From Thermoplasmata archaeon (GTDB lineage Archaea > Thermoplasmatota > Thermoplasmata > Lutacidiplasmatales > UBA184): a stretch of 64,000 nucleotides of DNA. Positions 10,549 to 64,000 of this stretch are shown here, piece by piece. How positions within the stretch are numbered: position 1 is the first letter of the stretch; each line of letters starts with the position of its first letter. The notes under the pieces were generated by a model. The model did not search any database, was not told the DNA's origin, and was given only the letters and a program-made list of their open reading frames with translations. Position numbers and translations under genes: made by a program. The stretch covers positions 24,043-88,042 of the forward strand of contig JAGWLG010000002.1 in the NCBI GenBank assembly GCA_028864975.1, given 5' to 3'.

Positions 10549-10610
10549 GCCTCGGCGGAGGAGCGGGCCGAGCGATGAAGCTCACGTGGGGCGCGCCTCG
10601 GGTCGGCCCT

Positions 10611-11858
10611 TCAGAAGTGGACGAAGGGCCGCGCCTTCTGCTGCTCGTGTGGGCGCCCCTCGCCTCCCGGGGGTAGCGAGGTCCGACGCGTGGCTAGGTA
10701 GGTGAGCAGGACGAAGACACCCAGGGCGAGCCCGAAGGCCGTCCCTGAGGCCGCAGCCCCGACGTGGTCCGCAAGGAAGGCCGTCCCGAGGGTAGGGACC
10801 GCCAGCGAGAGGTAGCCGGTGAGGAAGAACCCCGAGAGGACCTCGCCTCCCACCGCGTCGGGGGCGACGCGGTCGACCAGGGTGACGGCCCCCATGTAGA
10901 CGTAGCCGACGGCGACCCCCATCAGGACCCCCGATCCGAGCAGGACTGGAAGGGAGGCCAGCGGAAGGGAGAGCACGAAGAGGAGAAGGGAGAGCGCGAG
11001 CATCGGAAGTCCGAGGAGGAGGGCGTCCCGGTCCCGCACCTGACCGAGGAAGATCTGCACGATCGCGGCACCCGCGAACATGACGGAGACGAACGCCGAA
11101 GCCTCGAACGGGGCGATCCCCGTCGCCTCCCGGACCGCCGCGGGGGCGAGCGAGGCGAAGAACCCGTAGATCGCGTAGCACGCGGCGACCCCTCCCGCCG
11201 AGATCCAGAACGGCGCCCGGATCGACCGAGGGACGGAGATGTGGCGGATGCGCAGCCGGGTCGCTCCAGGACCAGGGTGGTAGTGGGGCGGGGTGACCCG
11301 GATCGCGAGCAGGCCCAAGAGGGCCGAGGCGACCAGGAAGACATAGACGAGCTGCCGCGGGTCGGGCAGGTACGCGACCGAGAGGCTGCTGACGAGGATG
11401 CCGGTGGCGACCGCGCCGAAGTTCGCACCAACGGCGACGCGGGCGACGTGGTGCTTGTCGAGGTGGGGCTCGCGATGGGTCATCGAGACGGTGGCCGTCC
11501 CGGTCGTCGCCCCCACGGCGAGGCCGGAGACGAAGCGCGCGGCGGCGAGCGCAAGGACTCCGTTCGCGAGGAGAAAGAGGACCCCGGAGAGGACCGTGAG
11601 GAGCATGCCCACGTAGAGGATCGGCCGGGTCCCCACGAGGTCCGCCTGAGGGGCCAACAGGAACATCGTCAGGAGGACGCCCACGGTGTACGAGGCGAAG
11701 ATCGCCGCCAGGACGGTCGACGAGAACGCATACTCCCGCTGGTAAATCGAATAGAGCGGCGTGGGCACTCCGGCCCCGAAGGCCGTGACGGCGAGCACGT
11801 AGGCGATGCGGCGGAAGGGACCCCGGGTCCGCTCCGCGACCCCGTCCGTCGGCGACAT
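10611..11858 (-). CDS. MFS transporter
   Basis: 12 hydrophobic segments, Gly-rich MFS-type loops ('FVSGLAVGATTG'). Confidence 0.75.
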   Translation of the reverse strand: MSPTDGVAERTRGPFRRIAYVLAVTAFGAGVPTPLYSIYQREYAFSSTVLAAIFASYTVGVLLTMFLLAPQADLVGTRPILYVGMLLTVLSGVLFLLANGVLALAAARFVSGLAVGATTGTATVSMTHREPHLDKHHVARVAVGANFGAVATGILVSSLSVAYLPDPRQLVYVFLVASALLGLLAIRVTPPHYHPGPGATRLRIRHISVPRSIRAPFWISAGGVAACYAIYGFFASLAPAAVREATGIAPFEASAFVSVMFAGAAIVQIFLGQVRDRDALLLGLPMLALSLLLFVLSLPLASLPVLLGSGVLMGVAVGYVYMGAVTLVDRVAPDAVGGEVLSGFFLTGYLSLAVPTLGTAFLADHVGAAASGTAFGLALGVFVLLTYLATRRTSLPPGGEGRPHEQQKARPFVHF

Positions 11859-11964: not shown

Positions 11965-12975
11965 TCAAAGGTCCGGCAGACGAACGCCGAGCACGTGGAG
12001 ACCCAGCGCGAGGACCAAGCCCACGGCGTACCACCCTGCAAAGCTGCGGTTGAGGAGGAACCCGAAGCCCACGAACCAGAGAGGCCAGGCTCCGGCCGGG
12101 TATCCCGGCGGAGGGTTTTCGGGATGGGGCCCCCGTAGCACTCGCCACGCGGGTACGGCCACCGGCAGGGAAAGAAGGGCCAAGAGAGAAGGGACCGGCA
12201 GCCGACCCCCCAGCACGAGGGCAACGACCGAGGCCGGCATCGCGACCAACAGGACCCGCATCGCGAAGCGGGCACGGGGTTCGCCCAGGATCACGGGGAG
12301 CGTGCGGATCCCCCTGCGGGCGTCGTCCTGGAGCTTGTCGATGTGCTTGCCCAAGATGACCAACGTGGCCCCCAGACCACTGGGGATCGCCCCGAGGAGG
12401 GCGAAGAGCGAGAGCGCCCCCGTCAACACGAACGCGCTTCCGGCGACCATGAGCGGCCCCCAGATGAGGAAGACCGCGACCTCTCCGAGACCGAGGTACT
12501 TGAGCCCAGGCCGGCTCGCGTAGCCCAGCGCCAGGACGAGGCCGACCAGGGCGAGAAGTCCGACCCAGGGTCCTCGCACCCAGACCAGAAGAGCTCCGCA
12601 CGCCAGCGCGGCCGCGGCGGTCGTTGCCGCCCAGGTGCGGAGCTCCTTCTCCGTCAGGAACCCTGAGAGGATGGGATGCGGGCCGTACTGGACCCGGAAG
12701 TAATTCCCTTCGTCAACGCCACTGTGGAAGTCCTCCAGGTCATTGATGAGGTTGCTCGCGGCGTGCGCGAGGACAAGACCCAGGGCGAGCGGCGGGAGGA
12801 GCCACCAGTCGACCGGGCCCTGAAGCGCCGCGAACAACGTCCCCAAGGCCACGCTCAGGACCGTGAGCAGCAGCACGGCGCCCCGCGACACGAGCAGCCA
12901 TCGCGACAGCAGGCCGCAGCTCGCCCACTCCTCTCGGCCCACCTTGGGGATCGTGGTCAAAGCCCTTCGCCACAT
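11965..12975 (-). CDS. UbiA-family prenyltransferase (MenA/DHNA-octaprenyltransferase-like)
   Basis: 'ASNLINDLEDFHSGVD' is the NDxxDxxxD prenyl-diphosphate binding motif; polytopic membrane protein. Confidence 0.75.
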   Translation of the reverse strand: MWRRALTTIPKVGREEWASCGLLSRWLLVSRGAVLLLTVLSVALGTLFAALQGPVDWWLLPPLALGLVLAHAASNLINDLEDFHSGVDEGNYFRVQYGPHPILSGFLTEKELRTWAATTAAAALACGALLVWVRGPWVGLLALVGLVLALGYASRPGLKYLGLGEVAVFLIWGPLMVAGSAFVLTGALSLFALLGAIPSGLGATLVILGKHIDKLQDDARRGIRTLPVILGEPRARFAMRVLLVAMPASVVALVLGGRLPVPSLLALLSLPVAVPAWRVLRGPHPENPPPGYPAGAWPLWFVGFGFLLNRSFAGWYAVGLVLALGLHVLGVRLPDL

Positions 12976-13036
12976 GGGAACCCCGTCGAGGTCGCGCCAG
13001 CGTAGGAAGTTCCGACCTCACGGGGGAGGGAGGAGC

Positions 13037-14182
13037 TCAGCTCGGGAGCGGGGTCGCCCGCTTGCGGCTGACCAGCGTCGGGAGCTTCCCGAGCTCGGAG
13101 AGCTCGGAGGGGCTCAACTGAAGCTGGAGCGCCCCGGACGGAAGCATCCTCAACGAACGACGGTGAGGGTCGCCCCGCAGCTGGACCGAGAGTCCCTCGG
13201 GCCCCCCGGTGGCCACGAGAGGAAGCTTGGAGCCCTTCCACTGGGTGAGGAGGGTCGACAGGAAGGCCTCGAGCGCCTCCCCCTTACCCACCGCGAAGAA
13301 CGCCTGCTGGGCGACCGACCGTCCATCGGAGCCCAGGAACAGGACCGGGACTGAAGGGAGCAACTTCGGAAAGCTCTTGGCGGGAGCCGCCGGCGAAGGC
13401 TCGCTCGATGCGGGGGGCTTCGGGGGAGCGGCGTGGGCCGCTTCCAGCTCGCCCTGCAGTCGCGCCGTATGCGACCGGGACTCCGACAGGTCGTGTGTGA
13501 GGCGCGCCACCTCGGCCTTTGCCGCCTCGAGCTCCGCCTCCGCTCGGGACCGTGCCTCTTCGCCCCGCTCCTTCTCGGTCCTCATCGTCTCGAGCTCCGC
13601 CTCGCGCGCGCGAAGCTCCTGCTCGGCCTTGTCCCAGCCGACCCGCATCTTCTCCGCCTCCGCTTTCCCTCCTCGGTGCGCTCCGAGCTCCTGGAGGGTG
13701 CGCTGAAGCTCCTCTCGGGAGGAGCTGAGGTCGTTCTCGAGCCGACCGCGGGCGCCACGTTCCTCCTCGACCTCGCTCCTCCGGAGCGCCTTCTCCCGCT
13801 CGAGGCCCGCGGTGGCCAGGGTGAGCTTGGAGGAGAGCTCCCGCGATTCGCTCGCCAACTGCTCCGCATCCCCCAGGGCGGCCTCCCGTTCCTTGACCGC
13901 AAGAACGAGCTCGGCGCGAAGATGAGCGACCTCGGCCATCAGGTCGGATAGGGCCAGGGTGGCAGGTCTCTCGACCAAGGCCCCACCGTCCGACCCGCTG
14001 GAGGGGCCCGAAGGGGCGAGCGACACTGGCTCCGTGGCGGAGACATCCTGGGCGAGGGAGGTCAGCTCTTCGAGCTCCCGCGCGAGAGAGCCCTGCTCCC
14101 CATCGGTGGTACCTGCGGGAGGTACCGTGGCTCCCTCCGGCGGGCGAGGCCGGGGCGGGGTCCGAGGGTCCTCGTCGGGCAT
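13037..14182 (-). CDS. coiled-coil protein with Pro-rich N-terminus and globular C-terminal domain, hypothetical
   Basis: About 200 aa of heptad-like E/R/L/A-rich sequence (REKALRRSEVEEERGARGRLENDLSSSREELQRTLQEL...) flanked by Pro-rich segments; start at MPDEDP (14182). Confidence 0.45.
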   Translation of the reverse strand: MPDEDPRTPPRPRPPEGATVPPAGTTDGEQGSLARELEELTSLAQDVSATEPVSLAPSGPSSGSDGGALVERPATLALSDLMAEVAHLRAELVLAVKEREAALGDAEQLASESRELSSKLTLATAGLEREKALRRSEVEEERGARGRLENDLSSSREELQRTLQELGAHRGGKAEAEKMRVGWDKAEQELRAREAELETMRTEKERGEEARSRAEAELEAAKAEVARLTHDLSESRSHTARLQGELEAAHAAPPKPPASSEPSPAAPAKSFPKLLPSVPVLFLGSDGRSVAQQAFFAVGKGEALEAFLSTLLTQWKGSKLPLVATGGPEGLSVQLRGDPHRRSLRMLPSGALQLQLSPSELSELGKLPTLVSRKRATPLPS

Positions 14183-14371
14183 GATGCCTACCACCTGGCG
14201 CAGTCCTTCGCCAGGGCGGTCCTTCGGCTTAAACCTGGGGGGAGGGCGCCGCCCCCCTGCCGGGCACGGATGCGGTGGACCCCGGTTCACCAAGGGCTCT
14301 TGGGGGACGGGCCGGGTAGTGTCCCTCGAGGGAGGTTCGCTTCAAGGGCTCCCCCTCGGGAGGATGGGTCG

Positions 14372-14746
14372 ATGATGGAGCATCGTCATCTGATCGTGGG
14401 GAGCTGGTACGAGAACGGCCCTCCCTCCCGCACCGTCGAGGTCGTTTCGGAGGTGCTCTCCCACGTACGGGACCCCCCTCCAAGGGGAGAAGGGTCCCCC
14501 CGTGGGGGATTGCTCTACCGGGAACGCACGTTGTACCGGTGCGAGGGCGACAGTCCCTTCGCGGTCCACACCCTCGAGGAGTACGGCGACGATCCGCCGC
14601 GGAAGGTGGGGCTTCTGCAGCGCTACGCGTCCTGGGGCGAGGTGCTCGGGGACCACCCCGACCTCGCCCAGCGCGTCGCGGCGAACCTCCACCGGGTCGC
14701 GCGGTCGTCGTCGGCTCCTCGGCCGTTGGCGGATGCGGCCGCATAG
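14372..14746 (+). CDS. hypothetical protein
   Basis: ORF with good GC3 starting MMEHRHLIVGSWYENG; no recognisable motif. Confidence 0.3.
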   Translation: MMEHRHLIVGSWYENGPPSRTVEVVSEVLSHVRDPPPRGEGSPRGGLLYRERTLYRCEGDSPFAVHTLEEYGDDPPRKVGLLQRYASWGEVLGDHPDLAQRVAANLHRVARSSSAPRPLADAAA

Positions 14747-14842
14747 CTCTCTCCGGGACCGCGGCCGCGGGAGGTCTCGGCCCTTCAGTCGATTGTCTGG
14801 GTCGGCCCGTCGGAACGGATGCGCGGGGGGGCGGAACCCGCA

Positions 14843-15385
14843 TCAGATGATCTTCGCGTGGGTCGCGTTCAGCGGTCGGAACCCTCGCTTCGCATAGAAG
14901 CGTGCGGCGATCTGGTTCTGCGCGGGGAACTCGGCTGTGACGATGCCCGCCCCCTTTTCCTTCAGGATCCGGACCGTCTCCGCCAGGAGGTACTCTCCCA
15001 CGTTCTTACGCCGGAAGGCCGGCAGGAGGTAGATGTCCAGGATGACCCCCTCGACCTCGGGCGTGTAGAAGATCCGGTCGCGCAGCGCGGCCCGAACGAC
15101 CCCGACGACCCGGCCCTGGTCGGGCCCCGTCCCTTCACCGGCCAGGACCAGCATCTTCGGGTCCTTCACGGCGGTTTCCAGCACTCGCGTCGCGTGCGCT
15201 TCCGCGTCCATACGGACCTTGAGCAACGGGTCGAACTCCTCGTTCAGGCGCTTGAGCCGGACCAGAAGCCCGGCGAGCGCGGGGACGTCCTCCGCCTGCG
15301 CCGGTCGCACCGTGATGCGGTGGGCGGTCTCCTTGTGGCCCGCGGCGGCCTCCTCGATCAATCTGGCGGCTTTGCTGTCCGACAT
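14843..15385 (-). CDS. GNAT family N-acetyltransferase
   Basis: 'VGVVRAALRD...LLPAFRRKNVGEYLLAETVRILKEKGAGIVTAEF...ARFYAKRGF' GNAT motifs. Confidence 0.65.
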   Translation of the reverse strand: MSDSKAARLIEEAAAGHKETAHRITVRPAQAEDVPALAGLLVRLKRLNEEFDPLLKVRMDAEAHATRVLETAVKDPKMLVLAGEGTGPDQGRVVGVVRAALRDRIFYTPEVEGVILDIYLLPAFRRKNVGEYLLAETVRILKEKGAGIVTAEFPAQNQIAARFYAKRGFRPLNATHAKII

Positions 15386-15461
15386 CGTGTTTCGCTCCCC
15401 CACCCTTCGCACGCTCCTCGCTGCTCTTCTCCTCGCTTTCGTGGGTGAACTTCGATGGTCC

Positions 15462-16898
15462 CTAGTCGCTCTCCTGCCCCGGCATCGGGGGCAGCAAGCC
15501 GTTCTTCATGAGGACGCGGGAGAGCTCCTTGGGTCGGGCCATCCGCGACTGCGCGAGCTGGAGGAACTCCTCCTTCGTGCGCTTCGCTCGGGCGATGCCG
15601 AGCTCCACGGCCTTCGTGGCCACCGAGGCCGCGACCTCGGGAAAGACCCCTTCCTCGGCCATCGTGGGGAGGATGTGCTCTCGCGTGAGCCCCTTGACCT
15701 TCGCCTGGCGGGCGAGGGCCTGGGCGGCCTCCAGGGCGAGCACGTCGGGGATCCCCTTCGCGTGGGCGTCCAGGATCCCTCGGAAGACCGGGGGGAAGAT
15801 CAGCGAGTTGTTGACCTGGTTCGGGAAGTCGCTCCGCCCCGTCGCGACGATCGCCGCGCCCGCGTCCCGCGCGACATGCGGCCAGACCTCGGGGTCGGGA
15901 TTGGCGAGCGAGAAGACGATGGCCTCCGGGGCCATGGTCGAGATCCAATCGGGCTTGACCATGCCGGGCTGGGGGGTCGAGGCGGCGATGAGCACGTCCG
16001 CCCCGCGAAGGGCCTCCTTGAGCCCCCCTTGGGTCCGGGCCTCGTTCGTCGTCAGCGCGAGCTCGTACTTCCATCGGTTGCGGAGCATGAGCTCGTCGAT
16101 GTCCTCCCGCTCCGAGTGCAGGATCCCCCGGTGGTCCACGACGGTCAGGGCCCCCATGTCGCAGTTGAGCGCCTTCAACAGTCGGGCGGTGGCCAGGTTT
16201 GCCGCCCCCGCCCCCAGGAGGACGATCCCCGTCTGCCAGATCTTCCGGCCCGTGAGCTCGAGGGCGTTCAGGAGGCCGGCGACGGTGGCGGCCGCGGTGC
16301 CCAACTGGTCGTCGTGCCACACAGGGATCGAGAGCGAGCGCTGCAGGTCGTCCAGGATCTGAAAGCACTTGGGGCTCGCGATATCCTCGAGGTTCACCCC
16401 GCCCAGGGCAGGCTCCAAGCGCTGGACCGTGGCGACGATCTCTGCCGGGTCCTTGGTCCGGATCGGGATCGGGAAGGCGTCGACCCCACCCAGGTACTTG
16501 AACAGGAGCGCCTTGCCCTCCATCACCGGGAGCGCCGCCTCCGGTCCCACGTCGCCCAGACCCAGGACCCGCGAACCGTCGGTCACGATGGCGATGGTGT
16601 TCCATCGCCCCGTGAGCTCGAAGGCGAGCTCGGGGTCCTTGTGGATCTGCCGCGAGACCTCGGCGATCCCCGGGGTGTACCAGTACGAGAAGTCCTTGAG
16701 GGTCCGCACGGGGACCTTCGGGATGACCTCGATCTTCCCCGCGAAGTGGCGGGCGAGGTCGACCGCGCGTTCGGAGAGGCCCCGCGTCTCCTCCTCGGCC
16801 TCCCGGGAGCGGGCCTCCTCGAGCTCCTGGTCCGTCTTGCGCCCGCCTTCCTCGACCCCGGGGCGGGAGCGGGGGAGGACTTCGACCATGAGGGCCAC
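15462..16898 (-). CDS. NAD(P)-dependent malic enzyme (small prokaryotic form)
   Basis: 'DFSYWYTPGIAEV', 'VTDGSRVLGLGDVG', 'FKYLGGVDAFPI', 'VLLGAGAANLATARLL', 'FSLANPDPEV' are malic-enzyme signatures; N-terminal approx. 40 aa may be over-extended. Confidence 0.85.
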   Translation of the reverse strand: MALMVEVLPRSRPGVEEGGRKTDQELEEARSREAEEETRGLSERAVDLARHFAGKIEVIPKVPVRTLKDFSYWYTPGIAEVSRQIHKDPELAFELTGRWNTIAIVTDGSRVLGLGDVGPEAALPVMEGKALLFKYLGGVDAFPIPIRTKDPAEIVATVQRLEPALGGVNLEDIASPKCFQILDDLQRSLSIPVWHDDQLGTAAATVAGLLNALELTGRKIWQTGIVLLGAGAANLATARLLKALNCDMGALTVVDHRGILHSEREDIDELMLRNRWKYELALTTNEARTQGGLKEALRGADVLIAASTPQPGMVKPDWISTMAPEAIVFSLANPDPEVWPHVARDAGAAIVATGRSDFPNQVNNSLIFPPVFRGILDAHAKGIPDVLALEAAQALARQAKVKGLTREHILPTMAEEGVFPEVAASVATKAVELGIARAKRTKEEFLQLAQSRMARPKELSRVLMKNGLLPPMPGQESD

Positions 16899-16994
16899 GA
16901 CCCGAGCCCCCGTCAGGGGCGCGCGCCTAGGGATGGCCGTGGGAGACGAATAAAACGTTGGTGACGGGATTGGACGCCGCCGTCGGACCTAGGC

Positions 16995-17633
16995 TTGAAG
17001 AGCCCCCGACGGCATCCGTGGTCCGCGGGGTCAATGCCGGCGGATTCGACGCTGCCTGCGACAGCGCCTCCGGCGCCACTTGCCCTCCCCTTCACCGCCC
17101 GCGACGCGCGCCGCGAACAGCTCCAGCGAGAGTACGAGGAGGCCGTCGCCCGCCTTCGGCGGGTGCGCCAGTACCGCTTCGTGATCTATGGCGAGGTCCG
17201 CCGTTGTCTCGCCGTCCTGGGCGACCAGGCGAGCGAGCTCGTCGGGGGCGAGAGGTACGAGGAGCTCAAGCGTGAGAGCGAGATGCTCTCGACGGACCCC
17301 GTCCCGATCGAGGGGATGGAAGGTGAGGAGCCCCTCACGGACCCGGCCCTGGCCTGGATGGAACCGGAATCTCTGCCGGAGGCGGTGGAGGGGCCACCCT
17401 CGCTCCCGCCCGCCCCTAGTTCGGAGGAGACGGGCCACGCGGCGAGGACCCTTCGGGAGTGCCTGGAGTACTTGGATGCCGCGGACCGCTCGATCCCGGA
17501 GTTCCACGTAGCGATCCTGCAGGCCGAGGCACGTCTCAAGGAGCTCGGCGAGACCCCGACCGTCGCCGTCGAGGTCGTGACCAGCCCGGTCTCGCCCCCC
17601 CCGACGACCGCGCCGCCAGCTTCGACCAGCTGA
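16995..17633 (+). CDS. hypothetical acidic/Pro-rich protein
   Basis: Coding-like GC3; no motif; start may be further downstream. Confidence 0.35.
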   Translation: MKSPRRHPWSAGSMPADSTLPATAPPAPLALPFTARDARREQLQREYEEAVARLRRVRQYRFVIYGEVRRCLAVLGDQASELVGGERYEELKRESEMLSTDPVPIEGMEGEEPLTDPALAWMEPESLPEAVEGPPSLPPAPSSEETGHAARTLRECLEYLDAADRSIPEFHVAILQAEARLKELGETPTVAVEVVTSPVSPPPTTAPPASTS

Positions 17634-39662: not shown

Positions 39663-42600
39663 GTGGAAGAGGGCCTGCCTCTCGAGGATATGTCGCCCAC
39701 GCCGTCGGGGCCCGCCGCGGCCCCCGTCTTCGTCGGCCGTGAGGCGGAGCGGAGCCGGCTCCAGGAAGGGGTCGATCGTGCCCGCGGAGGGCAGGGGAAC
39801 TCTTGGGTGATCTCGGGCCCCGCGGGAGTCGGGAAGACGCGATTGATGCAGTGGCTGGAGGGGGAGGCCCAGACCCAGGGGTTCCGGGTCCTCTGGGGGT
39901 ACTGCCTGAAGGAGGACGTCTCCCCGTTCTTTCCCTTCGAGCAGATCCTCCATCGGCTGGGCCCTCGGGGTGGGTCCCGCGGTGGGGCCGGCGCGGCCGA
40001 GGCGGGGGTGGGGGACGTCCCGTTCCAGGTCGACGAGGCGGCCGCCGTGGTCATCTTCGAAGAGGAGAAGCCGAAGCGCATCTTCGACCACGCGTCGGCG
40101 CTCTCGAAGGCGCATCCCTGCCTCGTGCTGGGCCGGGACCGTCCTCAGTCGGTGCGGCAGAGGTTCCCCGAGCTCGCTCCCTCCTCGCGAGTCCTTTGGC
40201 TGTCGAGGACCGAGGGGGAGGAGGTGATCCCTCCGAGCCAGCTGGACGCGTTGGGCGAGCTCGCGGAGAAGCACCTCCGCCAGCACGAGGGAGGCGTCGT
40301 CGCGCTCGCGGGCATCGAGTACCTGGTGAGCCAGAATACGTTCCTCCCGGTGCTGCGGCTCTTGCAGTTCCTGAGAGACGTCGCTGAGGGGACAGGGGGG
40401 AAGCTGCTCCTCTCGGTCCACCCCGCGGCCTTCGATGCCCGGGAGTTCTCGCTGCTCGAGGCCGAGGGGGAGGTGGTGAAAGCCCCGTCGGCGGCGTCGC
40501 CCACCGGAGGGAGCGCCGAGGAGCGGCCGTCGGGCCGGGGGACGAGCGAGCCCTCCTCCGCCACGCTCCTCCGATACGTCCAGACGTTCGAGGCGGAGTC
40601 CCGCAACCGACCGCTCCTGCTCCTGCTGGACGACTTCCAGTGGGCGGACGAAGGCTCGGCGCTGGCCTTCCAGTTCCTCTCTCGGAACCTTCGGCGGGCC
40701 CCCGTCATCCTCGTGGCGGGCGTCCGCGACGCCGAGACGCGGACCACGGTCGCGGCGGGAGGCGGGAGCCCCCAGGAGGGGGTCGTCGTCGATGTCATGG
40801 ACAACCTGGACCGCGAAGGGATCCTGCGGAGGCTGCCGCTGCGGGGGCTCGACCCGGGGGAGGCGCGCGACCTCCTCGAAGGCTACCTGGGGGCACCGCT
40901 CGCGCCGGGGGACGTCGAGGGGGCGGCGCAGACCCTGGTCGAGCTCACCGGAGGGAACCCGTACCACCTCCTGCAGGTCGTGAGCCAGCTCAAGGAGGAG
41001 GGGCTCGCCCGGGTCGAGGGGGGCCGGGGGCTCATCTCGCTCCCTGCTCCGACGGAGGTTGGGTCGTCGTTCGCGGGCTCTCGGGGGCGCACCTCGCTCC
41101 CGACGATCCGGCGCCTGGTCTCTCGGCAGCTCGAAGGCCTGCCGAAGGAGGACCGCGCCCTTCTCGAGACCGCGTCCCTCGTCGGGCGGGAGTTCGACCT
41201 CCCTCCCCTGGCGGACGTTCTAGGTCGCTCCCGGGAGGACCTGAAGGCCCGTGCCGAGAAGCTCACCACGCGGCCCCCGCTCCTCACGGCACGGGAGGAC
41301 GGGAAGCGCTACGCCTTCCAGAACCCGATCGTCTGGGAGGTGGCGAGGGAGGAGCTCTCGGCCGAGGACCGACGCCGGTGCTCCCGGACCCTCGCGGACT
41401 GGTTCACCTCGCGTCGTCCAGAGGAGACCGAGACCATCGCGCGCCTCTACTACGAGGCCCGGGACCGGACGAAGGGGCTTCCGTGGATCCGCAAGGCGGC
41501 CGACAAGGCGCTCCGGACGCAGGCGAGCGATGCGGTCGAGCGTTACGTTCGGTGGGCGGAGGACCTGCTGCGCGGGAGCGGGGAGGACTGGGAGGGACGC
41601 GTGATGGAGGGGGTACGGCTCGCGGAGGGGATCCGCGAACAGGGGGCTATCCGCGACGCCCGACGGCTCCTGCAAGGGTTGCTGGAAGCGGGGCCCCCCG
41701 ACAAGCTCCGTTGGCGGGTCCAGAGGGCGCTGGTCATGGCCCAGGCGGACATCGATGCGCGCGAAGCCCGCACGCGGCTCGAGGAGCTCGAACGCAGCCT
41801 CCAGGCAATGCCCGAGGCGAAGATGCCGGAGTGCCGCTCGCTCCTCGCGGTGACGCGGGCCCACGTGCTGACCCTCGCGGGCTCGTGGGAGGAAGGGCTC
41901 GCCGCGGCGCGCGAGGCCCTCCAGCTGCTCTCGGAGGTAGGAGGGGGAGACCCGGCCGAACGTGCGCAAGCCCTCTACGCGGCGGGGTGGTGCCTGAAAC
42001 AGCTGGGACGGCTCGAGGAGGCGCGCGAGCAATTCGCCCAAGGTCGCGCCGCGGCGGCGGTCGCCGAGCGACCGGGGCTGCTCGCCTCCCACATGAACGG
42101 CGAGGGGGCGGTCGCCCTCCTTCGAGGGGACCTCCCGGCCGCGCGCCGGGCCTTCGAGGACGCGGTCGAACAGTGCCGCAAGACGGGGAACGTCGCGAGG
42201 GTCGCCTCGATCCTGCTCAACATGGCCGAGGTCGCGTTGAACCTGGGGGACCTGGAGGCCGCCCGGAAGGCGGCCGAAGAGGCGCAGGCGCTGGGGGAGC
42301 GCTTCGACGTCCCTCGGGTCGCCGCCAACGCGACCTTCCGCATGGGCGTGATCCACCAGAAGGAGAAGCGATGGGAGGAGGCTCGCACGGCGTTCCAGGC
42401 CGCGCTCGAGCGCTACGACCGCTTGGGCCTGGCCGACCTCGCCTACTCCGCCCGGATCAACCTCGCGCTCCTGCGCGGGATCATGGGCGACCCTCAGTCC
42501 GCCCTCGTCGAGCTCGAGGAGATGGTCCGCAAGAGCGTGGGCGTCGACCTCAGGAACCTACCGCTCTATCACCAGGCCCGGGCGGAGCTCAAGGGGTTCA

Positions 42601-42815
42601 CCGGCGACTCCGACGGAGCGAAGCGCGAGCTCGAGCGGGGGCTCGAGGCCGCGCGTTCGACGCAGAACCTCCTCTCGCAGGCTTCCCTGCACGAAGCCCT
42701 GGGGGCGTGGGAGGATGCGCACGGGGACCCCGCGCGGGCCCGGGTCCAGCGCGAGCAGGCCGAGGCGCTCTTCCGTCAATGCGGACTACCGAAAGGGAGC
42801 ACCTCGCGCGGCTGA
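39663..42815 (+). CDS. STAND-type AAA_16 ATPase with DUF835-like domain inserted between Walker A and Walker B, and C-terminal TPR array
   Basis: 'PVFVGREAERSRL...WVISGPAGVGKTRLMQWL' (AAA_16 start plus Walker A), 'PFFPFEQILHRL'; residues approx. 150-270 'RVLWLSRTEGEEVIPPSQLDALGELAEKHLRQHEGGVVALAGIEYLVSQNTFLPVLRLLQFLRDVAEGTGGKLLLSVHPAAFDAREFSLLEAE' match the DUF835 pattern; then 'LLLLLDDFQWADEGSALAFQFLSR' (AAA_16 Walker B/hhhhDDxhWaD); about 550 aa of TPR-like helical repeats follow. Confidence 0.8.
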   Translation: MEEGLPLEDMSPTPSGPAAAPVFVGREAERSRLQEGVDRARGGQGNSWVISGPAGVGKTRLMQWLEGEAQTQGFRVLWGYCLKEDVSPFFPFEQILHRLGPRGGSRGGAGAAEAGVGDVPFQVDEAAAVVIFEEEKPKRIFDHASALSKAHPCLVLGRDRPQSVRQRFPELAPSSRVLWLSRTEGEEVIPPSQLDALGELAEKHLRQHEGGVVALAGIEYLVSQNTFLPVLRLLQFLRDVAEGTGGKLLLSVHPAAFDAREFSLLEAEGEVVKAPSAASPTGGSAEERPSGRGTSEPSSATLLRYVQTFEAESRNRPLLLLLDDFQWADEGSALAFQFLSRNLRRAPVILVAGVRDAETRTTVAAGGGSPQEGVVVDVMDNLDREGILRRLPLRGLDPGEARDLLEGYLGAPLAPGDVEGAAQTLVELTGGNPYHLLQVVSQLKEEGLARVEGGRGLISLPAPTEVGSSFAGSRGRTSLPTIRRLVSRQLEGLPKEDRALLETASLVGREFDLPPLADVLGRSREDLKARAEKLTTRPPLLTAREDGKRYAFQNPIVWEVAREELSAEDRRRCSRTLADWFTSRRPEETETIARLYYEARDRTKGLPWIRKAADKALRTQASDAVERYVRWAEDLLRGSGEDWEGRVMEGVRLAEGIREQGAIRDARRLLQGLLEAGPPDKLRWRVQRALVMAQADIDAREARTRLEELERSLQAMPEAKMPECRSLLAVTRAHVLTLAGSWEEGLAAAREALQLLSEVGGGDPAERAQALYAAGWCLKQLGRLEEAREQFAQGRAAAAVAERPGLLASHMNGEGAVALLRGDLPAARRAFEDAVEQCRKTGNVARVASILLNMAEVALNLGDLEAARKAAEEAQALGERFDVPRVAANATFRMGVIHQKEKRWEEARTAFQAALERYDRLGLADLAYSARINLALLRGIMGDPQSALVELEEMVRKSVGVDLRNLPLYHQARAELKGFTGDSDGAKRELERGLEAARSTQNLLSQASLHEALGAWEDAHGDPARARVQREQAEALFRQCGLPKGSTSRG

Positions 42816-60762: not shown

Positions 60763-61424
60763 TGAGGAAGGGACTGGTGATCGTGGGGGTCGTCCTGCTG
60801 GCCTTGGGAGCGGTGCTGATGTTCGTCCCGCTGATCCCTTCGACGATAAGTTCGACGGCGAGCAACCCTTCGGCCAACGGCGGAATGATCGGCTACAACA
60901 TCTACCAGTCCAGCTTCTCCCTGACCGGGGGAACCACCGGCAAGTTCTCCTTCTCCTCTTCCTCCCCGGTGGACATCGCGGTCATCACCTGCTCCCGCGC
61001 GGTCACCACCTCGCAGCTTCAGCAGGCCACCACCAGCGCCCAGTTCAATGCGGCCTGCGGGACCAACACCACATACGGGACGACGCAGGTCGGAGGCTTC
61101 TCGTTCTCGAACGGCACGAGCGGTCCCTTCTCCGTGACCATCCCCTCCGGAGGGACCCTCATCTGGTTCGCGCTCTCGGGACAGAACTCCCCTCCGACCG
61201 TGACCGTGACGACGACGTACACCTCCCCGCTGCTCGGGCTGGTGCTCTTGGTCATCGGCGTGCTCCTCCTGCTCTTGGGGGTGGCCCTCAAGTCGAAGAA
61301 GCAGAAGCAGGCCGCGACCTCTCTGCCTCCGCCCCAGCCGTGGGGCCCTCCTTCCGGCCAAGGTGTGGCGTCGCCAGGAGCTCCCCCACCGGCCTGGCAA
61401 CAGCCTCCTCCACCCTCGCGATAG
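60763..61424 (+). CDS. bitopic membrane protein, small Cys-pair ectodomain, Pro-rich cytoplasmic tail (paralogue family member B)
   Basis: TM 'LVIVGVVLLALGAVLMFVPLI', ectodomain with 'ITCSRAV...NAACGTN', TM 'LLGLVLLVIGVLLLLLGVAL', tail 'PPPQPWGPPSGQGVASPGAPPPAWQQPPPP'. Confidence 0.5.
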
Positions 61425-61641: not shown

Positions 61642-62322
61642 ATGGCTCGCCCTGGGGAGCCCTCAGTGCGACCCGTCTTCGCCCTTGTCGGTTCGGCTAT
61701 CCTGGTCCTTCTCGCGCTCCTCTCTTACTTCGTTGCGGCGGGGTTCCAGCAGCAGAACAGCCTCTACCTCTCCTCTGGGCCCCTCTACACGGGAGGGGCG
61801 GGGTCGGCGGTGGTCGATCCCACCTCGTCGGAGGACACTTTCCTTCCGAACATCCCGGTGAACGTCACCGTGACCGACCTCCCGGCTGGGGCGACGGTCT
61901 ACGCCTTCCCGTGTCCCACGGGGGTGACGAACTCGACCCAGTGTGCCAAGAGCGCCCCCTCGTTCATCGATTCCTGGACCGGCAACGGGGACGGGCACCC
62001 GGTCTTCCTCCACTTCAACGTCAACGTCGGGCACGCTTTCGTGCTCACGACCAATGCCGGCCGGGGTGCCCAGGTCGCCTACACGGCGAAGGTCCCGCTG
62101 TGGGCCCTCCAGACGTGGGTGGTCGTGATCGTCATGATCGTGGGGATCGTTCTGGTCGGGGTGGGCCTCTCCCGGGGGCACTCCTCGGGGTCGGCGGCCT
62201 CCTATGGCGAACCGGCCGGATACTCCTCACCCCCCCTTCGGCGGTTCTGCGAGACCTGCGGGAGCCGCTTCCCCGACGACATGACAATGTACTGCCCCTC
62301 CTGCGGCGCGCCCCGGATGTGA
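61642..62322 (+). CDS. bitopic membrane protein, Cys-pair ectodomain, C-terminal cytoplasmic zinc ribbon (family member C)
   Basis: TM 'VFALVGSAILVLLALLSYFVAAG', 'FPCPTGVTNSTQCAKS', TM 'WVVVIVMIVGIVLVGVGL', 'CETCGSRFPDDMTMYCPSCG'; TATA-like 'CCTTTTATAGAGAG' just upstream. Confidence 0.5.
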   Translation: MARPGEPSVRPVFALVGSAILVLLALLSYFVAAGFQQQNSLYLSSGPLYTGGAGSAVVDPTSSEDTFLPNIPVNVTVTDLPAGATVYAFPCPTGVTNSTQCAKSAPSFIDSWTGNGDGHPVFLHFNVNVGHAFVLTTNAGRGAQVAYTAKVPLWALQTWVVVIVMIVGIVLVGVGLSRGHSSGSAASYGEPAGYSSPPLRRFCETCGSRFPDDMTMYCPSCGAPRM

Positions 62323-62323
62323 G

Positions 62324-63598
62324 GTGGGAACGGTGAGAGAAGGTCTACTGTTCCCCGGTGTGGTCCTCACGGTCCTGATGATCCTGTTCGCCTTCGCTCC
62401 TCTCCCGAACGCTCCGTCCGGGCAGGTGAGCTCGGCCCGGGCGCTCACGGTGAAGCCCCCCGCCTTCCCCTACTCGGAGGAGACGCCGATCAGCGTCAGC
62501 TGGAACGGGGGGAACGCTAGCACCTTCCTCGAGATCATCCCGTGCCTGGACTCGAACTGCTCTGCCGGGCCGAAGGCCCCCGTCACCGCGCCGCTCACGG
62601 TCAACGGAGGGGCCGTTGTGGCCAACGGGAGCTCGGGCGGCTTCACGGTCTGGGTCTCCACGACGCTGAGCCTGCTCATCGTGACGAACTCTCTCGCGCC
62701 GCTCAGCGTCACCGTGACGTGGAACGAGATGCCGGAGTTCGGGTTGCTCTGGGAGATCCTGACGGTCGTGGGCATCCTCCTCACGATCGGCGGGATGGTG
62801 CTCCCCGAGCACGGGGCCCCCCGCGGGCACCACCGGCGGCTTTCCTACGCCCACTGGAGGCACCACGCCTTCGCGCTCCCCCCTCACCTTCCCTCGACGG
62901 GGCTGACCTGCTCCGCCTGCGGGCTCTCGGACATCCCGCACGAGGACGACTTCTGCCCGCGTTGCCAAGCCCCCTTGCCGCGGGCCTCGACGGTCGTCCC
63001 CGGTCCTCCGTCGACCGCGGCGGCCGCCCCGGCCTCCCCCGCACGCCCCCGTGGCGCGGAGATGGCGGCGGGGACCGCCGCGGCGGCGTCGGCGGCCGGC
63101 ACGGTGGCCGCCGTGCCCCCCAAGAAGCGCGTCGCGGTGAACAAGTCGAAGGTCGCGGGGCAGTCGCTCTCCGTCGCCGACCCCGACCCGCTACGACCCT
63201 GGCGCGTGATGAAGGGCCTCGGGTTCGCTCCCGAAGAGGCCGTCGTCTTCACCCGCGAGGACCCGGTGGTCCTGGAGGAGAAGTACCACCTGACCGCTCA
63301 GCAGGTCCACATCATCAGCCGCACCGAAGGGGAGGGGACGATCTCCCCCTCGGAGTGCGACAAGATCGCGGACCTCGCCGACCAGCATCTTCGCAGCCAC
63401 GCGGGGGGCGTCGTGGTCCTGACCGACCCGAACTACTTCGTGACCCACGGTGGGTTCGACGTGCTTCGTAGGTTGGTGCTCGCGATCCAGGACCACGCCC
63501 GCGAGCAACGCGGGACCTTCATCCTCGCCTTCAACCCGTCGGTCTTCACGCCCGACCAGCGAGCGCAGCTCGAGGAGCGGATGCGCAAGGTCGTGTGA
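62324..63598 (+). CDS. bitopic membrane protein with Cys-pair ectodomain, cytoplasmic zinc ribbon, Ala/Pro-rich linker and C-terminal DUF835-like domain (family member D)
   Basis: TM 'LLFPGVVLTVLMILFAFAPL', 'IPCLDSNCSAGPK', TM 'LLWEILTVVGILLTIGGMVL', 'CSACGL...CPRCQAP'; C-terminus 'VVFTREDPVVLEEKYHLTAQQVHIISRTEGEGTISPSECDKIADLADQHLRSHAGGVVVLTDPNYFVTHGGFDVLRRLVLAIQDHAREQRGTFILAFNPSVFTPDQRAQLEE' aligns with the DUF835-like segment of the 39663 ORF. Confidence 0.6.
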   Translation: MGTVREGLLFPGVVLTVLMILFAFAPLPNAPSGQVSSARALTVKPPAFPYSEETPISVSWNGGNASTFLEIIPCLDSNCSAGPKAPVTAPLTVNGGAVVANGSSGGFTVWVSTTLSLLIVTNSLAPLSVTVTWNEMPEFGLLWEILTVVGILLTIGGMVLPEHGAPRGHHRRLSYAHWRHHAFALPPHLPSTGLTCSACGLSDIPHEDDFCPRCQAPLPRASTVVPGPPSTAAAAPASPARPRGAEMAAGTAAAASAAGTVAAVPPKKRVAVNKSKVAGQSLSVADPDPLRPWRVMKGLGFAPEEAVVFTREDPVVLEEKYHLTAQQVHIISRTEGEGTISPSECDKIADLADQHLRSHAGGVVVLTDPNYFVTHGGFDVLRRLVLAIQDHAREQRGTFILAFNPSVFTPDQRAQLEERMRKVV

Positions 63599-64000
63599 CC
63601 GACGGCATTACCCCTGCTGCACCGCTCCGATTCCGTCCGACCCGACGCCTCGAGCGCTCCCCCCATGGGGAGCGGCTGTTGGAGGCGGCGCTCGAGGTCG
63701 CTCCGGCCTTCCCCGAGCTTGCGGGAGAGGTCCGGTTGGACCTGCTCCCCAGCTCCTCCCGCTACCGTGGGCTGACCTTCGCGCTGGAGCGGCCGCCGAG
63801 GGTGGCCGTTCGACCTCACAGCCGGACGCCGATCGCGCTCCGCGCGACGTTGGCGCACGAGTTCGTCCACCTGCTGCAGCCCCCCCATGGGGACATCCCC
63901 GGAGGGGAGCGCTCGTGCGACCTCTACGCGATGGCGAGAGTGGGGAGCCGATACCCGCACCCCCCCGCCTATCTTCGACTTCCCCGGGGGCTCGCCCGCG
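63595..64000 (+). CDS. SprT-like/zincin-like metallopeptidase-domain protein, 3'-truncated at window end (not in ORF track)
   Basis: Frame 1 open from GTG overlapping the upstream stop (GTGTGA) to the window end with high GC3; 'RTPIALRATLAHEFVHLLQPPHGD' contains HExxH in a SprT-like context. Confidence 0.4.
   Translation, partial: MTDGITPAAPLRFRPTRRLERSPHGERLLEAALEVAPAFPELAGEVRLDLLPSSSRYRGLTFALERPPRVAVRPHSRTPIALRATLAHEFVHLLQPPHGDIPGGERSCDLYAMARVGSRYPHPPAYLRLPRGLAR

What the first reader, a model, noticed from the sequence alone, without database searches (positions are those of the whole stretch)
62324..64000. Membrane-anchored zinc-ribbon protein with C-terminal DUF835-like domain, immediately followed by a SprT-like zincin gene
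Gene D has an extracellular Cys-pair domain, two TM helices, a cytoplasmic CxxC-x(n)-CxxC ribbon, a low-complexity Ala/Pro linker and then a domain that aligns block-for-block with the DUF835 segment inserted in the STAND ATPase (HIISRTEGEGTISPSE / WLSRTEGEEVIPPSQ; GGVVVLTDPNYFV / GGVVALAGIEYLV; FDVLRRLVLAIQD / LPVLRLLQFLRD; TFILAFNP / KLLLSVHP). A GTG-started, high-GC3 frame overlapping its stop continues to the window edge and carries a SprT-like HExxH motif (ATLAHEFVHLLQPPHG). The layout resembles a transmembrane sensor / anti-sigma-like module with a partner metalloprotease, by analogy with regulated-proteolysis systems, but uses archaea-specific domains. The shared DUF835 suggests a possible link to the cytosolic STAND ATPase at 39663.
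Basis: partly seen in the sequence, partly recalled or inferred. Interest (0 to 1): 0.68.

Follow-up and report, generated by a model that had tools for sequence, protein, structure and literature searches.

The report
Membrane receptor with dead KaiC domain
This is an archaeal membrane protein whose cytoplasmic end is an inactivated KaiC/RecA-fold domain (DUF835), followed by a small uncharacterised zinc-protease-like gene and, just past the window edge, a coiled-coil KaiC-family protein; it looks like a KaiC-type signalling or anchoring module, not an anti-sigma/protease switch, and its function is untested.

Summary
Gene D (62333/62324..63598, +) has TM1, a beta-rich ectodomain with an invariant Cys pair, TM2, an invariant CxxC-x11-CxxC ribbon, a disordered Ala/Pro linker and a C-terminal DUF835 (Pfam E=2e-14). 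That domain is 35% identical to the DUF835 inserted in the STAND ATPase at 39663.

A GTG frame overlapping D's stop is a real 183-aa gene, complete in a near-identical contig. It has an invariant HExxH...E and a confident zincin-like model.

The interpretation needs changing.
- DUF835 is an inactivated KaiC/RecA-fold domain. Its best structural matches are FlaH/ArlH, KaiC and RecA, and it has no Walker A.
- D's most conserved partners in Thermoplasmata relatives are an upstream TM/Zn-ribbon protein and a downstream 866-aa coiled-coil KaiC-family protein.
- The HExxH gene is missing in the most divergent relative. Its homologues elsewhere never sit next to DUF835 or KaiC genes.
- The HExxH protein matches no Pfam or NCBIfam family. 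SprT-like is a fold-level resemblance only, and IrrE/M78 fits equally well.
- D's DUF835 is not specially close to the STAND copy.

Best reading: a membrane-anchored iKaiC receptor or anchor for the neighbouring KaiC-like protein, with a lineage-specific accessory zincin. This is a new variant of a predicted but uncharacterised kind, of moderate interest.

The parts
61645..62322 (+). Upstream partner gene 'TMZn226' (225 aa): TM1, ectodomain, TM2, and a C-terminal CxxCG-x10-CxxCGAP zinc ribbon. It has the same topology as the N-terminal half of gene D.
   Evidence: ORF. Sub-threshold zinc-ribbon Pfam hits. Found directly upstream of D in all six relatives (tblastn). It shares the TM2-spacer-ribbon layout with D, with marginal similarity.
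62333..63598 (+). Gene D, a membrane-anchored DUF835 (iKaiC) protein. It is 421 aa from GTG 62333. The mechanical ORF starts at 62324, and residue numbers in this report follow that 424-aa version.
   Evidence: (P0001, 100% identical, named 'DUF835 domain-containing protein').
62345..62404 (+). TM1 or signal anchor (aa ~8-27).
   Evidence: Hydropathy scan. AF2 helix 9-23.
62411..62728 (+). Beta-rich ectodomain (aa ~30-135) with the invariant C74/C79 pair and N-x-S/T sequons.
   Evidence: AF2 strands with pLDDT 80-93. Invariant Cys in alignment A2.
62732..62806 (+). TM2 (aa ~137-161), followed by the Arg/His-rich, conserved juxtamembrane segment HWRHHxFALPPHLP.
62909..62965 (+). Cytoplasmic zinc ribbon C196-x2-C199-x11-C211-x2-C214.
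   Evidence: All four Cys are invariant. Pfam DZR and Zn_ribbon_3 match below threshold.
62981..63133 (+). Disordered Ala/Pro-rich linker (aa ~220-270). Its length varies, and it is absent in orthologue P0008.
   Evidence: pLDDT below 50. Alignment A2.
63164..63595 (+). DUF835 = inactivated KaiC/RecA-fold domain (aa ~281-424). It has no Walker A. 'VVVLTD' is a Walker-B-like strand.
   Evidence: Pfam PF05763, E=2e-14. AF2 pLDDT 83-94. Foldseek matches to FlaH 4yds (E=2.4e-5), KaiC and RecA, all at probability 1.0. No GxxxxGK[ST] motif.
63595..64000 (+). First 135 of 183 codons of a small cytosolic HExxH (zincin-like) protein of an unnamed family. HEFVH lies at 63856-63870 and the invariant Glu105 at 63907-63909. 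Its GTG start overlaps D's stop (GTGA).
   Evidence: AF2 mean pLDDT 93.6. Only weak fold matches, all to metallopeptidases. No Pfam or NCBIfam family.
39663..42815 (+). STAND ATPase (AAA_16 + TPR) with DUF835 (aa 134-268, bases 40062-40466) inserted between Walker A and Walker B. It shares the domain family with D, but no specific link was shown.

Best explanation
Gene D encodes a receptor-like membrane protein.
- A small beta-sandwich ectodomain faces outward. TM2 leads into a cytoplasmic zinc ribbon, a flexible linker and a C-terminal DUF835 domain.
- DUF835 here is a KaiC/RecA-fold domain that has lost its P-loop (an 'iKaiC'). It cannot hydrolyse ATP and most likely works through protein-protein contact.

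D belongs to a gene block conserved in a narrow clade of Thermoplasmata:
- a divergent membrane protein upstream;
- a TM/Zn-ribbon protein of the same topology;
- D itself;
- usually the small HExxH protein;
- an ~860-aa protein with a long, highly conserved coiled coil and a C-terminal KaiC-family domain;
- a Trm112-like/SAM methyltransferase.

Proposed mechanism (inferred, not shown). The tethered iKaiC domain docks onto, or co-assembles with, the KaiC-family domain of the coiled-coil neighbour. That would hold the neighbour at the membrane or change its nucleotide or oligomeric state in response to what the ectodomain senses. The precedent is ArlH/FlaH, a KaiC-like protein that does not hydrolyse ATP and controls its partner ArlI by direct binding.

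The HExxH protein is a soluble minimal zincin, probably a gluzincin with HExxH plus Glu. It is translationally coupled to D but is a lineage-specific accessory, not the core partner.
For: Shown
- DUF835 membership.
- KaiC/RecA fold of the domain: FlaH 4yds E=2.4e-5, and KaiC and RecA at probability 1.0 over 145-165 columns, from a model with pLDDT 83-94 in that domain.
- No Walker A in D or in any orthologue.
- The literature classifies DUF835 as iKaiC and describes KaiC-like ATPases as archaeal signalling hubs (PMC5847659).
- The downstream 866-aa protein is KaiC family by sequence: PF06745 at 4e-13, and PH0284/PH0186/KaiC at 3.6e-10 to 1e-7.
- The block TMZn226-D-(HExxH)-ccKaiC-MT307 is conserved in L001, L002, L003/4, L007 and L008. 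L009 has it up to its contig end.
- In L003/L004, D is followed directly by ccKaiC with no HExxH gene.
- HExxH homologues outside the clade have no DUF835 or KaiC neighbours.
- C-terminal DUF835 on membrane proteins with very different ectodomains is a common architecture. This fits a generic cytoplasmic output domain.
- ArlH gives a precedent for a non-hydrolysing KaiC-like regulator (PMC8978795).

Inferred
- The D-ccKaiC contact.
- Sensing by the ectodomain.
- Any role of the zincin.
Against: - There is no direct evidence that D and ccKaiC interact.
- Gaps of ~115 nt separate HExxH from ccKaiC and ccKaiC from the methyltransferase, so co-transcription is not established.
- Other DUF835 membrane receptors (L015, L016) have no KaiC neighbour. 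Adjacency is therefore not a general rule for this domain.
- Profile-profile comparison of DUF835 with the ccKaiC domain was not significant: hhalign probability 1%. A small DUF835 profile found nothing in PDB sequences. The KaiC relationship rests on a predicted fold plus the literature.
- The ccKaiC P-loop is atypical (N[AG]P[SA]HTGK[DE]), so it too may not be an active ATPase.
- The block is known from only a handful of MAGs. Three GTDB species carry it.
Confidence: 0.5

Rival explanations
1. Regulated proteolysis. The soluble HExxH zincin cleaves D, most plausibly in its Ala/Pro linker, or cleaves a neighbouring protein. Cleavage would release the iKaiC domain from the membrane, in the way ImmA/IrrE-type proteases cleave a cognate regulator.
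For: - The 4-nt GTGA start/stop overlap of D and the HExxH gene is conserved in L001, L007 and L008.
- The two genes are adjacent in five sequenced relatives. Matching contig lengths suggest three more.
- The one orthologue without the HExxH neighbour (P0008 in L003/L004) is also the only one without the Ala/Pro linker.
- HExxH and E105 are invariant, and the zincin-like model is confident.
- Weak fold matches include IrrE-like and SprT-like phage proteins.
Against: - The joint absence of linker and protease is a single evolutionary event (n=1).
- HExxH homologues in other archaea and bacteria have unrelated neighbours, so the family has no general tie to DUF835.
- D has no released effector, such as an HTH or a sigma-binding domain, apart from the iKaiC domain itself.
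- Archaea have no sigma factors (established knowledge).
- Protease activity and the substrate are both untested.
Confidence: 0.2
2. Homotypic DUF835 signalling to the STAND ATPase. D and other DUF835 membrane receptors would signal by docking their DUF835 onto the DUF835 inserted in the cytosolic AAA_16/TPR STAND protein at 39663.
For: - Both proteins carry DUF835, at 35% identity and E=6e-16.
- STAND proteins with this insert form a large family, about 60 of the 150 best representatives.
- RecA/KaiC-fold domains commonly oligomerise (established knowledge).
Against: - D's DUF835 is not specially similar to the STAND copy. It ranks about 21st among non-orthologous hits.
- The genes lie 20 kb apart with no conserved linkage tested.
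- No co-occurrence analysis or complex prediction could be run.
Confidence: 0.1
3. There is no functional unit. D, the HExxH gene and ccKaiC are unrelated genes kept adjacent only by recent shared ancestry of a few closely related MAGs.
For: - All relatives carrying the block belong to one narrow Thermoplasmata clade. Only three GTDB species were found.
- Housekeeping genes such as TyrRS/TrpRS-type tRNA-synt_1b and the proteasome alpha subunit are also syntenic nearby.
Against: - The order is kept down to 45% protein identity of D, while the flanks change. Ribosomal protein genes flank it in L003, and GT4/HAD genes in L002.
- There is a fold-level relationship between D's output domain and its neighbour's KaiC domain.
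- The D/HExxH start-stop overlap is conserved.
Confidence: 0.2

Closest known systems
DUF835 (PF05763) / 'iKaiC' domains of archaeal signalling proteins (Makarova, Galperin and Koonin 2017; Galperin et al. 2018, PMC5847659)
   Same: - Gene D scores above the Pfam gathering threshold.
- It has a KaiC/RecA-like predicted fold with no P-loop.
- The domain sits at the C-terminus of a membrane or sensor protein, as in many family members and in REC-DUF835 response regulators.
   Different: - The combination here is small ectodomain, TM, Zn ribbon, Ala/Pro linker, DUF835. That combination was found in only about 8 clusters, all from one Thermoplasmata clade.
- No member of the family has an experimentally known function.
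ArlH/FlaH, the KaiC-like regulator of the archaellum motor ATPase ArlI (PDB 4yds; PMC8978795)
   Same: - It is the best structural match of D's DUF835 domain (E=2.4e-5).
- It is a single-domain KaiC-fold protein that does not hydrolyse ATP and acts by binding a partner ATPase at a membrane-associated complex.
   Different: - ArlH keeps its Walker A, binds ATP and autophosphorylates. D has no P-loop.
- D is itself membrane-anchored.
- No archaellum genes are nearby.
- Sequence identity is about 11%.
Minimal zincins: ImmA/IrrE (Peptidase_M78, PF06114) and the SprT-like/WLM families
   Same: - The HExxH motif lies on a helix that follows a small beta-sheet, in a compact ~180-aa soluble protein.
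- Weak sequence and fold matches point to these families: M78 in 4 of 31 members at E>=0.002, SprT-like in 2 of 31 at E>=0.16, WLM 5jig at E=0.4, and BFVD IrrE-like and SprT-like models at E=6e-3 to 0.2.
   Different: - The window protein reaches no family threshold.
- Its conserved signature, HExxHLLQ-x6-P-x-GE-x2-CD with invariant Glu105, is its own.
- There is no adjacent HTH repressor, as ImmA/IrrE has, and no DNA-binding tail, as SprT/Spartan has.
Anti-sigma factor / site-2 protease regulated intramembrane proteolysis (for example RseA-RseP, RsiW)
   Same: A single-pass-type membrane protein with an extracytoplasmic domain and a cytoplasmic zinc-binding segment, encoded next to an HExxH protein.
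   Different: - There is no sigma factor, because archaea lack them.
- D has no anti-sigma domain hit.
- The HExxH protein is soluble, not a polytopic S2P.
- The HExxH gene is dispensable in one orthologous locus.

Membership tests
DUF835 (PF05763) | Match to the Pfam model above the gathering score | tested here: met
   E=2e-14, 53.9 bits against a cut-off of 33.1, aa 305-418 of gene D. A locally built DUF835 HMM scores 5e-37.
DUF835 as 'iKaiC' (inactivated KaiC-superfamily domain) | RecA/KaiC-like alpha/beta fold | tested here: met
   The AF2 domain has pLDDT 83-94. Foldseek on PDB gives FlaH 4yds at 2.4e-5, with KaiC, RecA and DMC1 at probability 1.0. Sequence-level profile tests were negative.
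DUF835 as 'iKaiC' (inactivated KaiC-superfamily domain) | Loss of the Walker A P-loop | tested here: met
   No GxxxxGK[ST] in D, in its orthologues, or within the DUF835 region of 150 representatives. The strand-to-helix turn reads TREDP.
Active KaiC-family ATPase (PF06745) | Pfam KaiC match and an intact Walker A/B | tested here: not met
   Gene D has no PF06745 hit and no Walker A. The neighbouring 866-aa protein does match PF06745 (4e-13) but has an atypical P-loop ending in GK[DE].
SprT-like (PF10263) | Match to the family model | tested here: not met
   No Pfam or NCBIfam hit for the 183-aa protein at E<=1. Only 2 of 31 homologues touch PF10263, at E>=0.16.
SprT-like (PF10263) | Fold similarity to solved SprT/Spartan or WLM domains | tested here: inconclusive
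Peptidase_M78 (ImmA/IrrE, PF06114) | Match to the family model, and a cognate HTH substrate gene next door | tested here: not met
   The window protein has no hit. Four of 31 homologues match below threshold, best E=0.002. No HTH gene is adjacent in L001. BFVD IrrE-like models match at E=6e-3 to 8e-3.
Zincin metallopeptidase superfamily (HExxH) | Invariant HExxH on a helix, a third ligand downstream, and a mixed beta-sheet before the active-site helix | tested here: met
   H88, E89, H92 and E105 are invariant in 31 sequences. In the AF2 model (pLDDT 93.6), strands 12-15, 45-50, 59-62 and 69-72 precede helix 79-92, which ends in HEFVH, and the next helix starts at E105. The top weak fold hits are mostly metallopeptidases.
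Zincin metallopeptidase superfamily (HExxH) | Zinc binding and peptidase activity | not testable with these tools
   Needs metal analysis and a protease assay.
Anti-sigma factor / RIP system | Anti-sigma domain, a partner sigma factor and a membrane-embedded site-2 protease | tested here: not met
   D has no such Pfam domain. The HExxH protein has no hydrophobic segment (sequence; model). No sigma factor gene lies in the locus.
Zinc ribbon | Two CxxC knuckles, conserved | tested here: met
   C196, C199, C211 and C214 are invariant in 8 orthologues. Pfam DZR and Zn_ribbon_3 match only below threshold. Metal binding was not tested.

The most novel reading that the evidence does not exclude
DUF835 could be a homotypic docking domain. 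A whole set of Thermoplasmata membrane receptors end in it: gene D, the Kelch/PKD giants and multi-TM forms. A large family of cytosolic STAND NTPases carries the same dead KaiC-fold domain spliced between Walker A and Walker B. Receptor DUF835 could dock onto STAND DUF835 and gate STAND oligomerisation. That would be an archaeal receptor-to-STAND pathway built like CARD, TIR or death-domain adaptor signalling, with the coiled-coil KaiC protein and the HExxH zincin as clade-specific add-ons.
Probability: 0.1. Interest if true: 0.75.

Novelty: new variant of a known kind. Interest (0 to 1): 0.38.

Why it matters
- KaiC-like and inactivated KaiC domains have been proposed, from comparative genomics alone, as major signalling hubs in archaea. 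Almost nothing about them has been tested outside the archaellum protein ArlH.
- This locus offers a compact, conserved pairing that could be tested directly for interaction: a membrane-anchored dead KaiC domain next to a KaiC-family coiled-coil protein.
- It also exposes a small, widely scattered HExxH protein family that has no family model in Pfam or NCBIfam.
- It draws attention to a populous STAND family with DUF835 spliced into its NTPase domain.
- None of this overturns current views. It adds a concrete candidate system to an under-studied area.

Tried and rejected
- An exact look-up of the 424-aa ORF found nothing. The 421-aa version, P0001, worked.
- The third homology search, using only the C-terminal 145 aa, returned one protein. 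This is a word-index limit, and the search was wasted.
- A profile search of DUF835 (3 sequences) against PDB sequences found nothing relevant.
- hhalign of a 168-sequence DUF835 profile against the ccKaiC domain gave probability 1%. The KaiC link is therefore fold-level only.
- A PDB profile search with the HExxH family gave spurious PPR-repeat hits and WLM at E=0.4.
- PHROGs and PADLOC gave no hits for D, the HExxH protein or ccKaiC. I rejected a mobile-element or defence reading.
- The key paper, Makarova et al. 2017, is not held in the library.
- The context of a second TM-ecto-TM-DUF835 protein, P0127, lies on contigs too short to be useful.
- I considered TMZn226 as a paralogue of D's N-terminal half. 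The layout is the same, but the similarity is too weak to claim homology.
- Minus-strand ORFs overlapping the region (for example 63433..63960 and 62345..62968) are treated as high-GC shadow frames. They have no homologues, and the plus-strand frames have GC3 of 0.83-0.92.
Full report
**1. What is in the sequence**

Gene D. The plus strand carries an ORF at 62324..63598 (424 aa). The identical protein is deposited as a 421-aa 'DUF835 domain-containing protein [Euryarchaeota archaeon]' (P0001). All orthologues begin MREG/MRDG. The real start is therefore most likely GTG 62333, six bases after a GAGGTG box at 62321-62326 (sequence).

Coding evidence. GC3 is 0.915 for D and 0.83 for the downstream frame, which fits coding frames in a ~70% GC genome.

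Source. A contig from GCA_028867515.1 (L001) differs from the window by 2 nt across 62324-64000 and extends beyond the window edge. The only GTDB species representatives carrying an orthologue are three 'Thermoplasmata archaeon' MAGs.

**2. Anatomy of gene D** (residues numbered from 62324)

- TM1 or signal anchor, aa ~8-27.
- A beta-rich ectodomain, aa ~30-135. AF2 pLDDT is 80-93. C74 and C79 are invariant, and there are several N-x-S/T sequons.
- TM2, aa ~137-161, followed by the conserved Arg/His-rich segment HWRHHxFALPPHLP. Its positive charge places this side in the cytoplasm.
- An invariant ribbon, C196-x2-C199-x11-C211-x2-C214.
- A disordered Ala/Pro linker, aa ~220-270. Its length varies, and it is absent in orthologue P0008.
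- A C-terminal domain, aa ~281-424.

These points rest. The C-terminal domain matches Pfam DUF835 at E=2e-14, above the gathering threshold.

**3. What DUF835 is**

- Galperin et al. 2018 list DUF835 (PF05763) as an 'iKaiC', an inactivated KaiC-like ATPase domain. They describe KaiC-family NTPases as proposed archaeal signal-transduction hubs (PMC5847659).
- I tested this on gene D. The AF2 model of the domain (pLDDT 83-94) finds FlaH/ArlH (4yds, E=2.4e-5), many KaiC chains, RecA and DMC1, all at probability 1.0 over 145-165 columns.
- There is no GxxxxGK[ST] in D, in its orthologues, or inside the DUF835 segment of 150 representatives. The position of the P-loop reads TREDP.
- Sequence-only tests did not see the relationship. 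It therefore rests on the predicted fold and the literature.

An exhaustive search found 1,931 DUF835 representatives at E<=1e-3. Among the best 150:
- about 60 are ~1,000-aa STAND proteins with the domain at residues ~110-260;
- many others are membrane proteins with 2-8 TM helices, or giant TM-ectodomain-TM receptors, with DUF835 at the C-terminus. One example is the Kelch/PKD receptor in L015.

'Ectodomain, TM, C-terminal DUF835' is therefore a recurrent receptor-like design. Gene D is a small version of it with an added zinc ribbon.

**4. The downstream gene**

- The frame starting at GTG 63595 overlaps D's TGA in the sequence GTGA. The same overlap occurs in L001, L007 and L008.
- In L001 it is a complete 183-aa gene.
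- It has 41 homologues, including bacterial ones from Eisenbacteria, Latescibacterota and Terriglobales MAGs. None has a Pfam domain.
- H88, E89, H92, L93, Q95, P102, G104, E105, C108, D109 and R115 are invariant.
- The AF2 model is confident (mean pLDDT 93.6). A four-stranded sheet and a backing helix precede helix 79-92, which ends in HEFVH. The next helix starts at E105. This is the layout of a minimal gluzincin-type zincin.

Family placement fails:
- There is no Pfam or NCBIfam hit.
- Per-member scans give only sub-threshold touches: DUF6055 in 13 of 31, M78 in 4 of 31 (best 0.002) and SprT-like in 2 of 31 (0.16).
- The PDB fold search has no hit below E=0.1. The top hits are MATCAP, ecarin, MMP-9, SPRTN and deuterolysin.
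- BFVD gives low-TM matches to small phage IrrE-like, SprT-like and other peptidase models.

'Zincin-like' is supported. 'SprT-like' is one of at least two equally weak family resemblances.

**5. Neighbourhood and conservation**

tblastn of the L001 gene products against all fetched loci, together with the gene tables, shows a conserved block:
- a divergent ~330-aa membrane protein;
- TMZn226 (window 61645..62322);
- D;
- the HExxH gene;
- an ~860-aa protein, 'ccKaiC';
- a ~300-aa Trm112-like/SAM methyltransferase;
- small proteins.

The block is present in L001, L002, L007 and L008, and in L009 up to its contig end.

In L003/L004 the D orthologue is 45% identical. There the HExxH gene is absent, and D is followed after ~70 nt by ccKaiC.

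ccKaiC is KaiC family by sequence: PF06745 at 4e-13, and PH0284, PH0186 and KaiC at 3.6e-10 to 1e-7. It has a long coiled coil that is almost invariant among orthologues, and an unusual P-loop, N[AG]P[SA]HTGK[DE].

HExxH homologues outside the clade sit next to unrelated genes:
- cysteine/methionine metabolism genes in L005;
- an M29 peptidase in L010;
- NUDIX in L011;
- a glycosyltransferase in L012.

The stable partners of D are therefore TMZn226 and ccKaiC. The zincin is a clade-specific addition.

**6. The STAND link**

- The STAND protein at 39663 carries DUF835 between its Walker A (GPAGVGKT) and Walker B (LLLLLDDFQWAD).
- It aligns with D's domain at 35% identity.
- With D's domain alone as the query, that copy ranks about 21st among non-orthologous DUF835 proteins.
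- Only these two DUF835 genes lie in the window, and they are 20 kb apart.
- Shared family membership is real. A specific functional link is neither shown nor excluded.

**7. Mechanism**

Most likely (confidence ~0.5): D is a membrane receptor or anchor whose dead KaiC-fold domain binds the KaiC-family domain of ccKaiC. This would localise ccKaiC or modulate it. The precedent is ArlH, a KaiC-like protein that does not hydrolyse ATP and controls ArlI by direct, phosphorylation-sensitive binding (PMC8978795).
- Shown: the domain identities, the topology, and the conservation of gene order.
- Inferred: the contact itself, and ligand sensing by the ectodomain.

Main rival (~0.2): the zincin cleaves D's linker and releases the iKaiC domain. 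One observation favours it. The only orthologue without the zincin gene is also the only one without the linker. That is a single evolutionary event.

Other readings: the literal anti-sigma analogy fails its membership tests. Homotypic DUF835 signalling to the STAND protein (~0.1) and mere inherited adjacency (~0.2) remain open.

**8. Novelty and verdict**

- Gene D is already annotated as a DUF835 protein, and the domain is a recognised but functionally untested iKaiC.
- The particular architecture, the conserved block with a coiled-coil KaiC protein, and the unnamed HExxH family are undescribed in the literature I could search.
- I rate it a new variant of a known, computationally predicted kind. 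Interest is moderate, 0.38.
The proposed protease/anti-sigma logic is not the best reading.

Noticed in passing
window 39663..42815 (+); DUF835 at 40062..40466: The STAND ATPase has a dead KaiC-fold domain (DUF835) spliced between its Walker A (GPAGVGKT) and Walker B (LLLLLDDFQWAD), so a P-loop-derived domain is nested inside a P-loop NTPase. About 60 of the 150 best DUF835 representatives share this ~1,000-aa layout, so it is a populous family that appears to be undescribed.
   Followed up: partly
L001 11930..14530 (just beyond the window end; window 62324 = L001 9992): An 866-aa protein with three parts: an N-terminal ~100-aa domain, a Pro/Ala-rich spacer, and a ~330-aa coiled coil that is nearly invariant among orthologues, for example HEERGRRRELEEELEHVKKGSVAVIKYVRNREARAREEA. 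It ends in a KaiC-family domain whose P-loop ends in GK[DE] instead of GK[ST].
   Followed up: partly
window 61645..62322 (+) and 60857..61424 (+): Two more small TM-ectodomain-TM proteins lie directly upstream of D. The first ends in a zinc ribbon laid out like D's and is conserved next to D in all relatives. The second (TM189) is present only in the window/L001 lineage.
   Followed up: partly
L001 16421..16720 and 16844..17134: Tandem paralogous ~97-aa proteins, 38% identical to each other and with no Pfam family. They are conserved downstream of the block in L002, L007 and L008.
   Followed up: no
L015 6001..9495 and 12448..15495: Two convergent ~1,164-aa receptors (Kelch beta-propeller, PKD repeats, TM, C-terminal DUF835). 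They come from the same metagenome sample as locus L002, which carries a D orthologue. DUF835 therefore seems to serve as a common cytoplasmic end for very different ectodomains.
   Followed up: no
window 62320..62335: The mechanical ORF start of D (GTG 62324) lies inside a GAGGTG Shine-Dalgarno-like box. The likely true start is GTG 62333, as in the NCBI call and all orthologues.
   Followed up: yes
L003 6209..7321 (orthologue P0008): The most divergent D orthologue lacks both the Ala/Pro linker and the downstream HExxH gene. This is a single coincidence that would fit the linker being the zincin's substrate.
   Followed up: partly
L005 7594..9408 and 9520..10911: Downstream of an out-of-clade HExxH homologue lie two paralogous proteins (604 and 463 aa) with no Pfam family. 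Their function is unknown.
   Followed up: no
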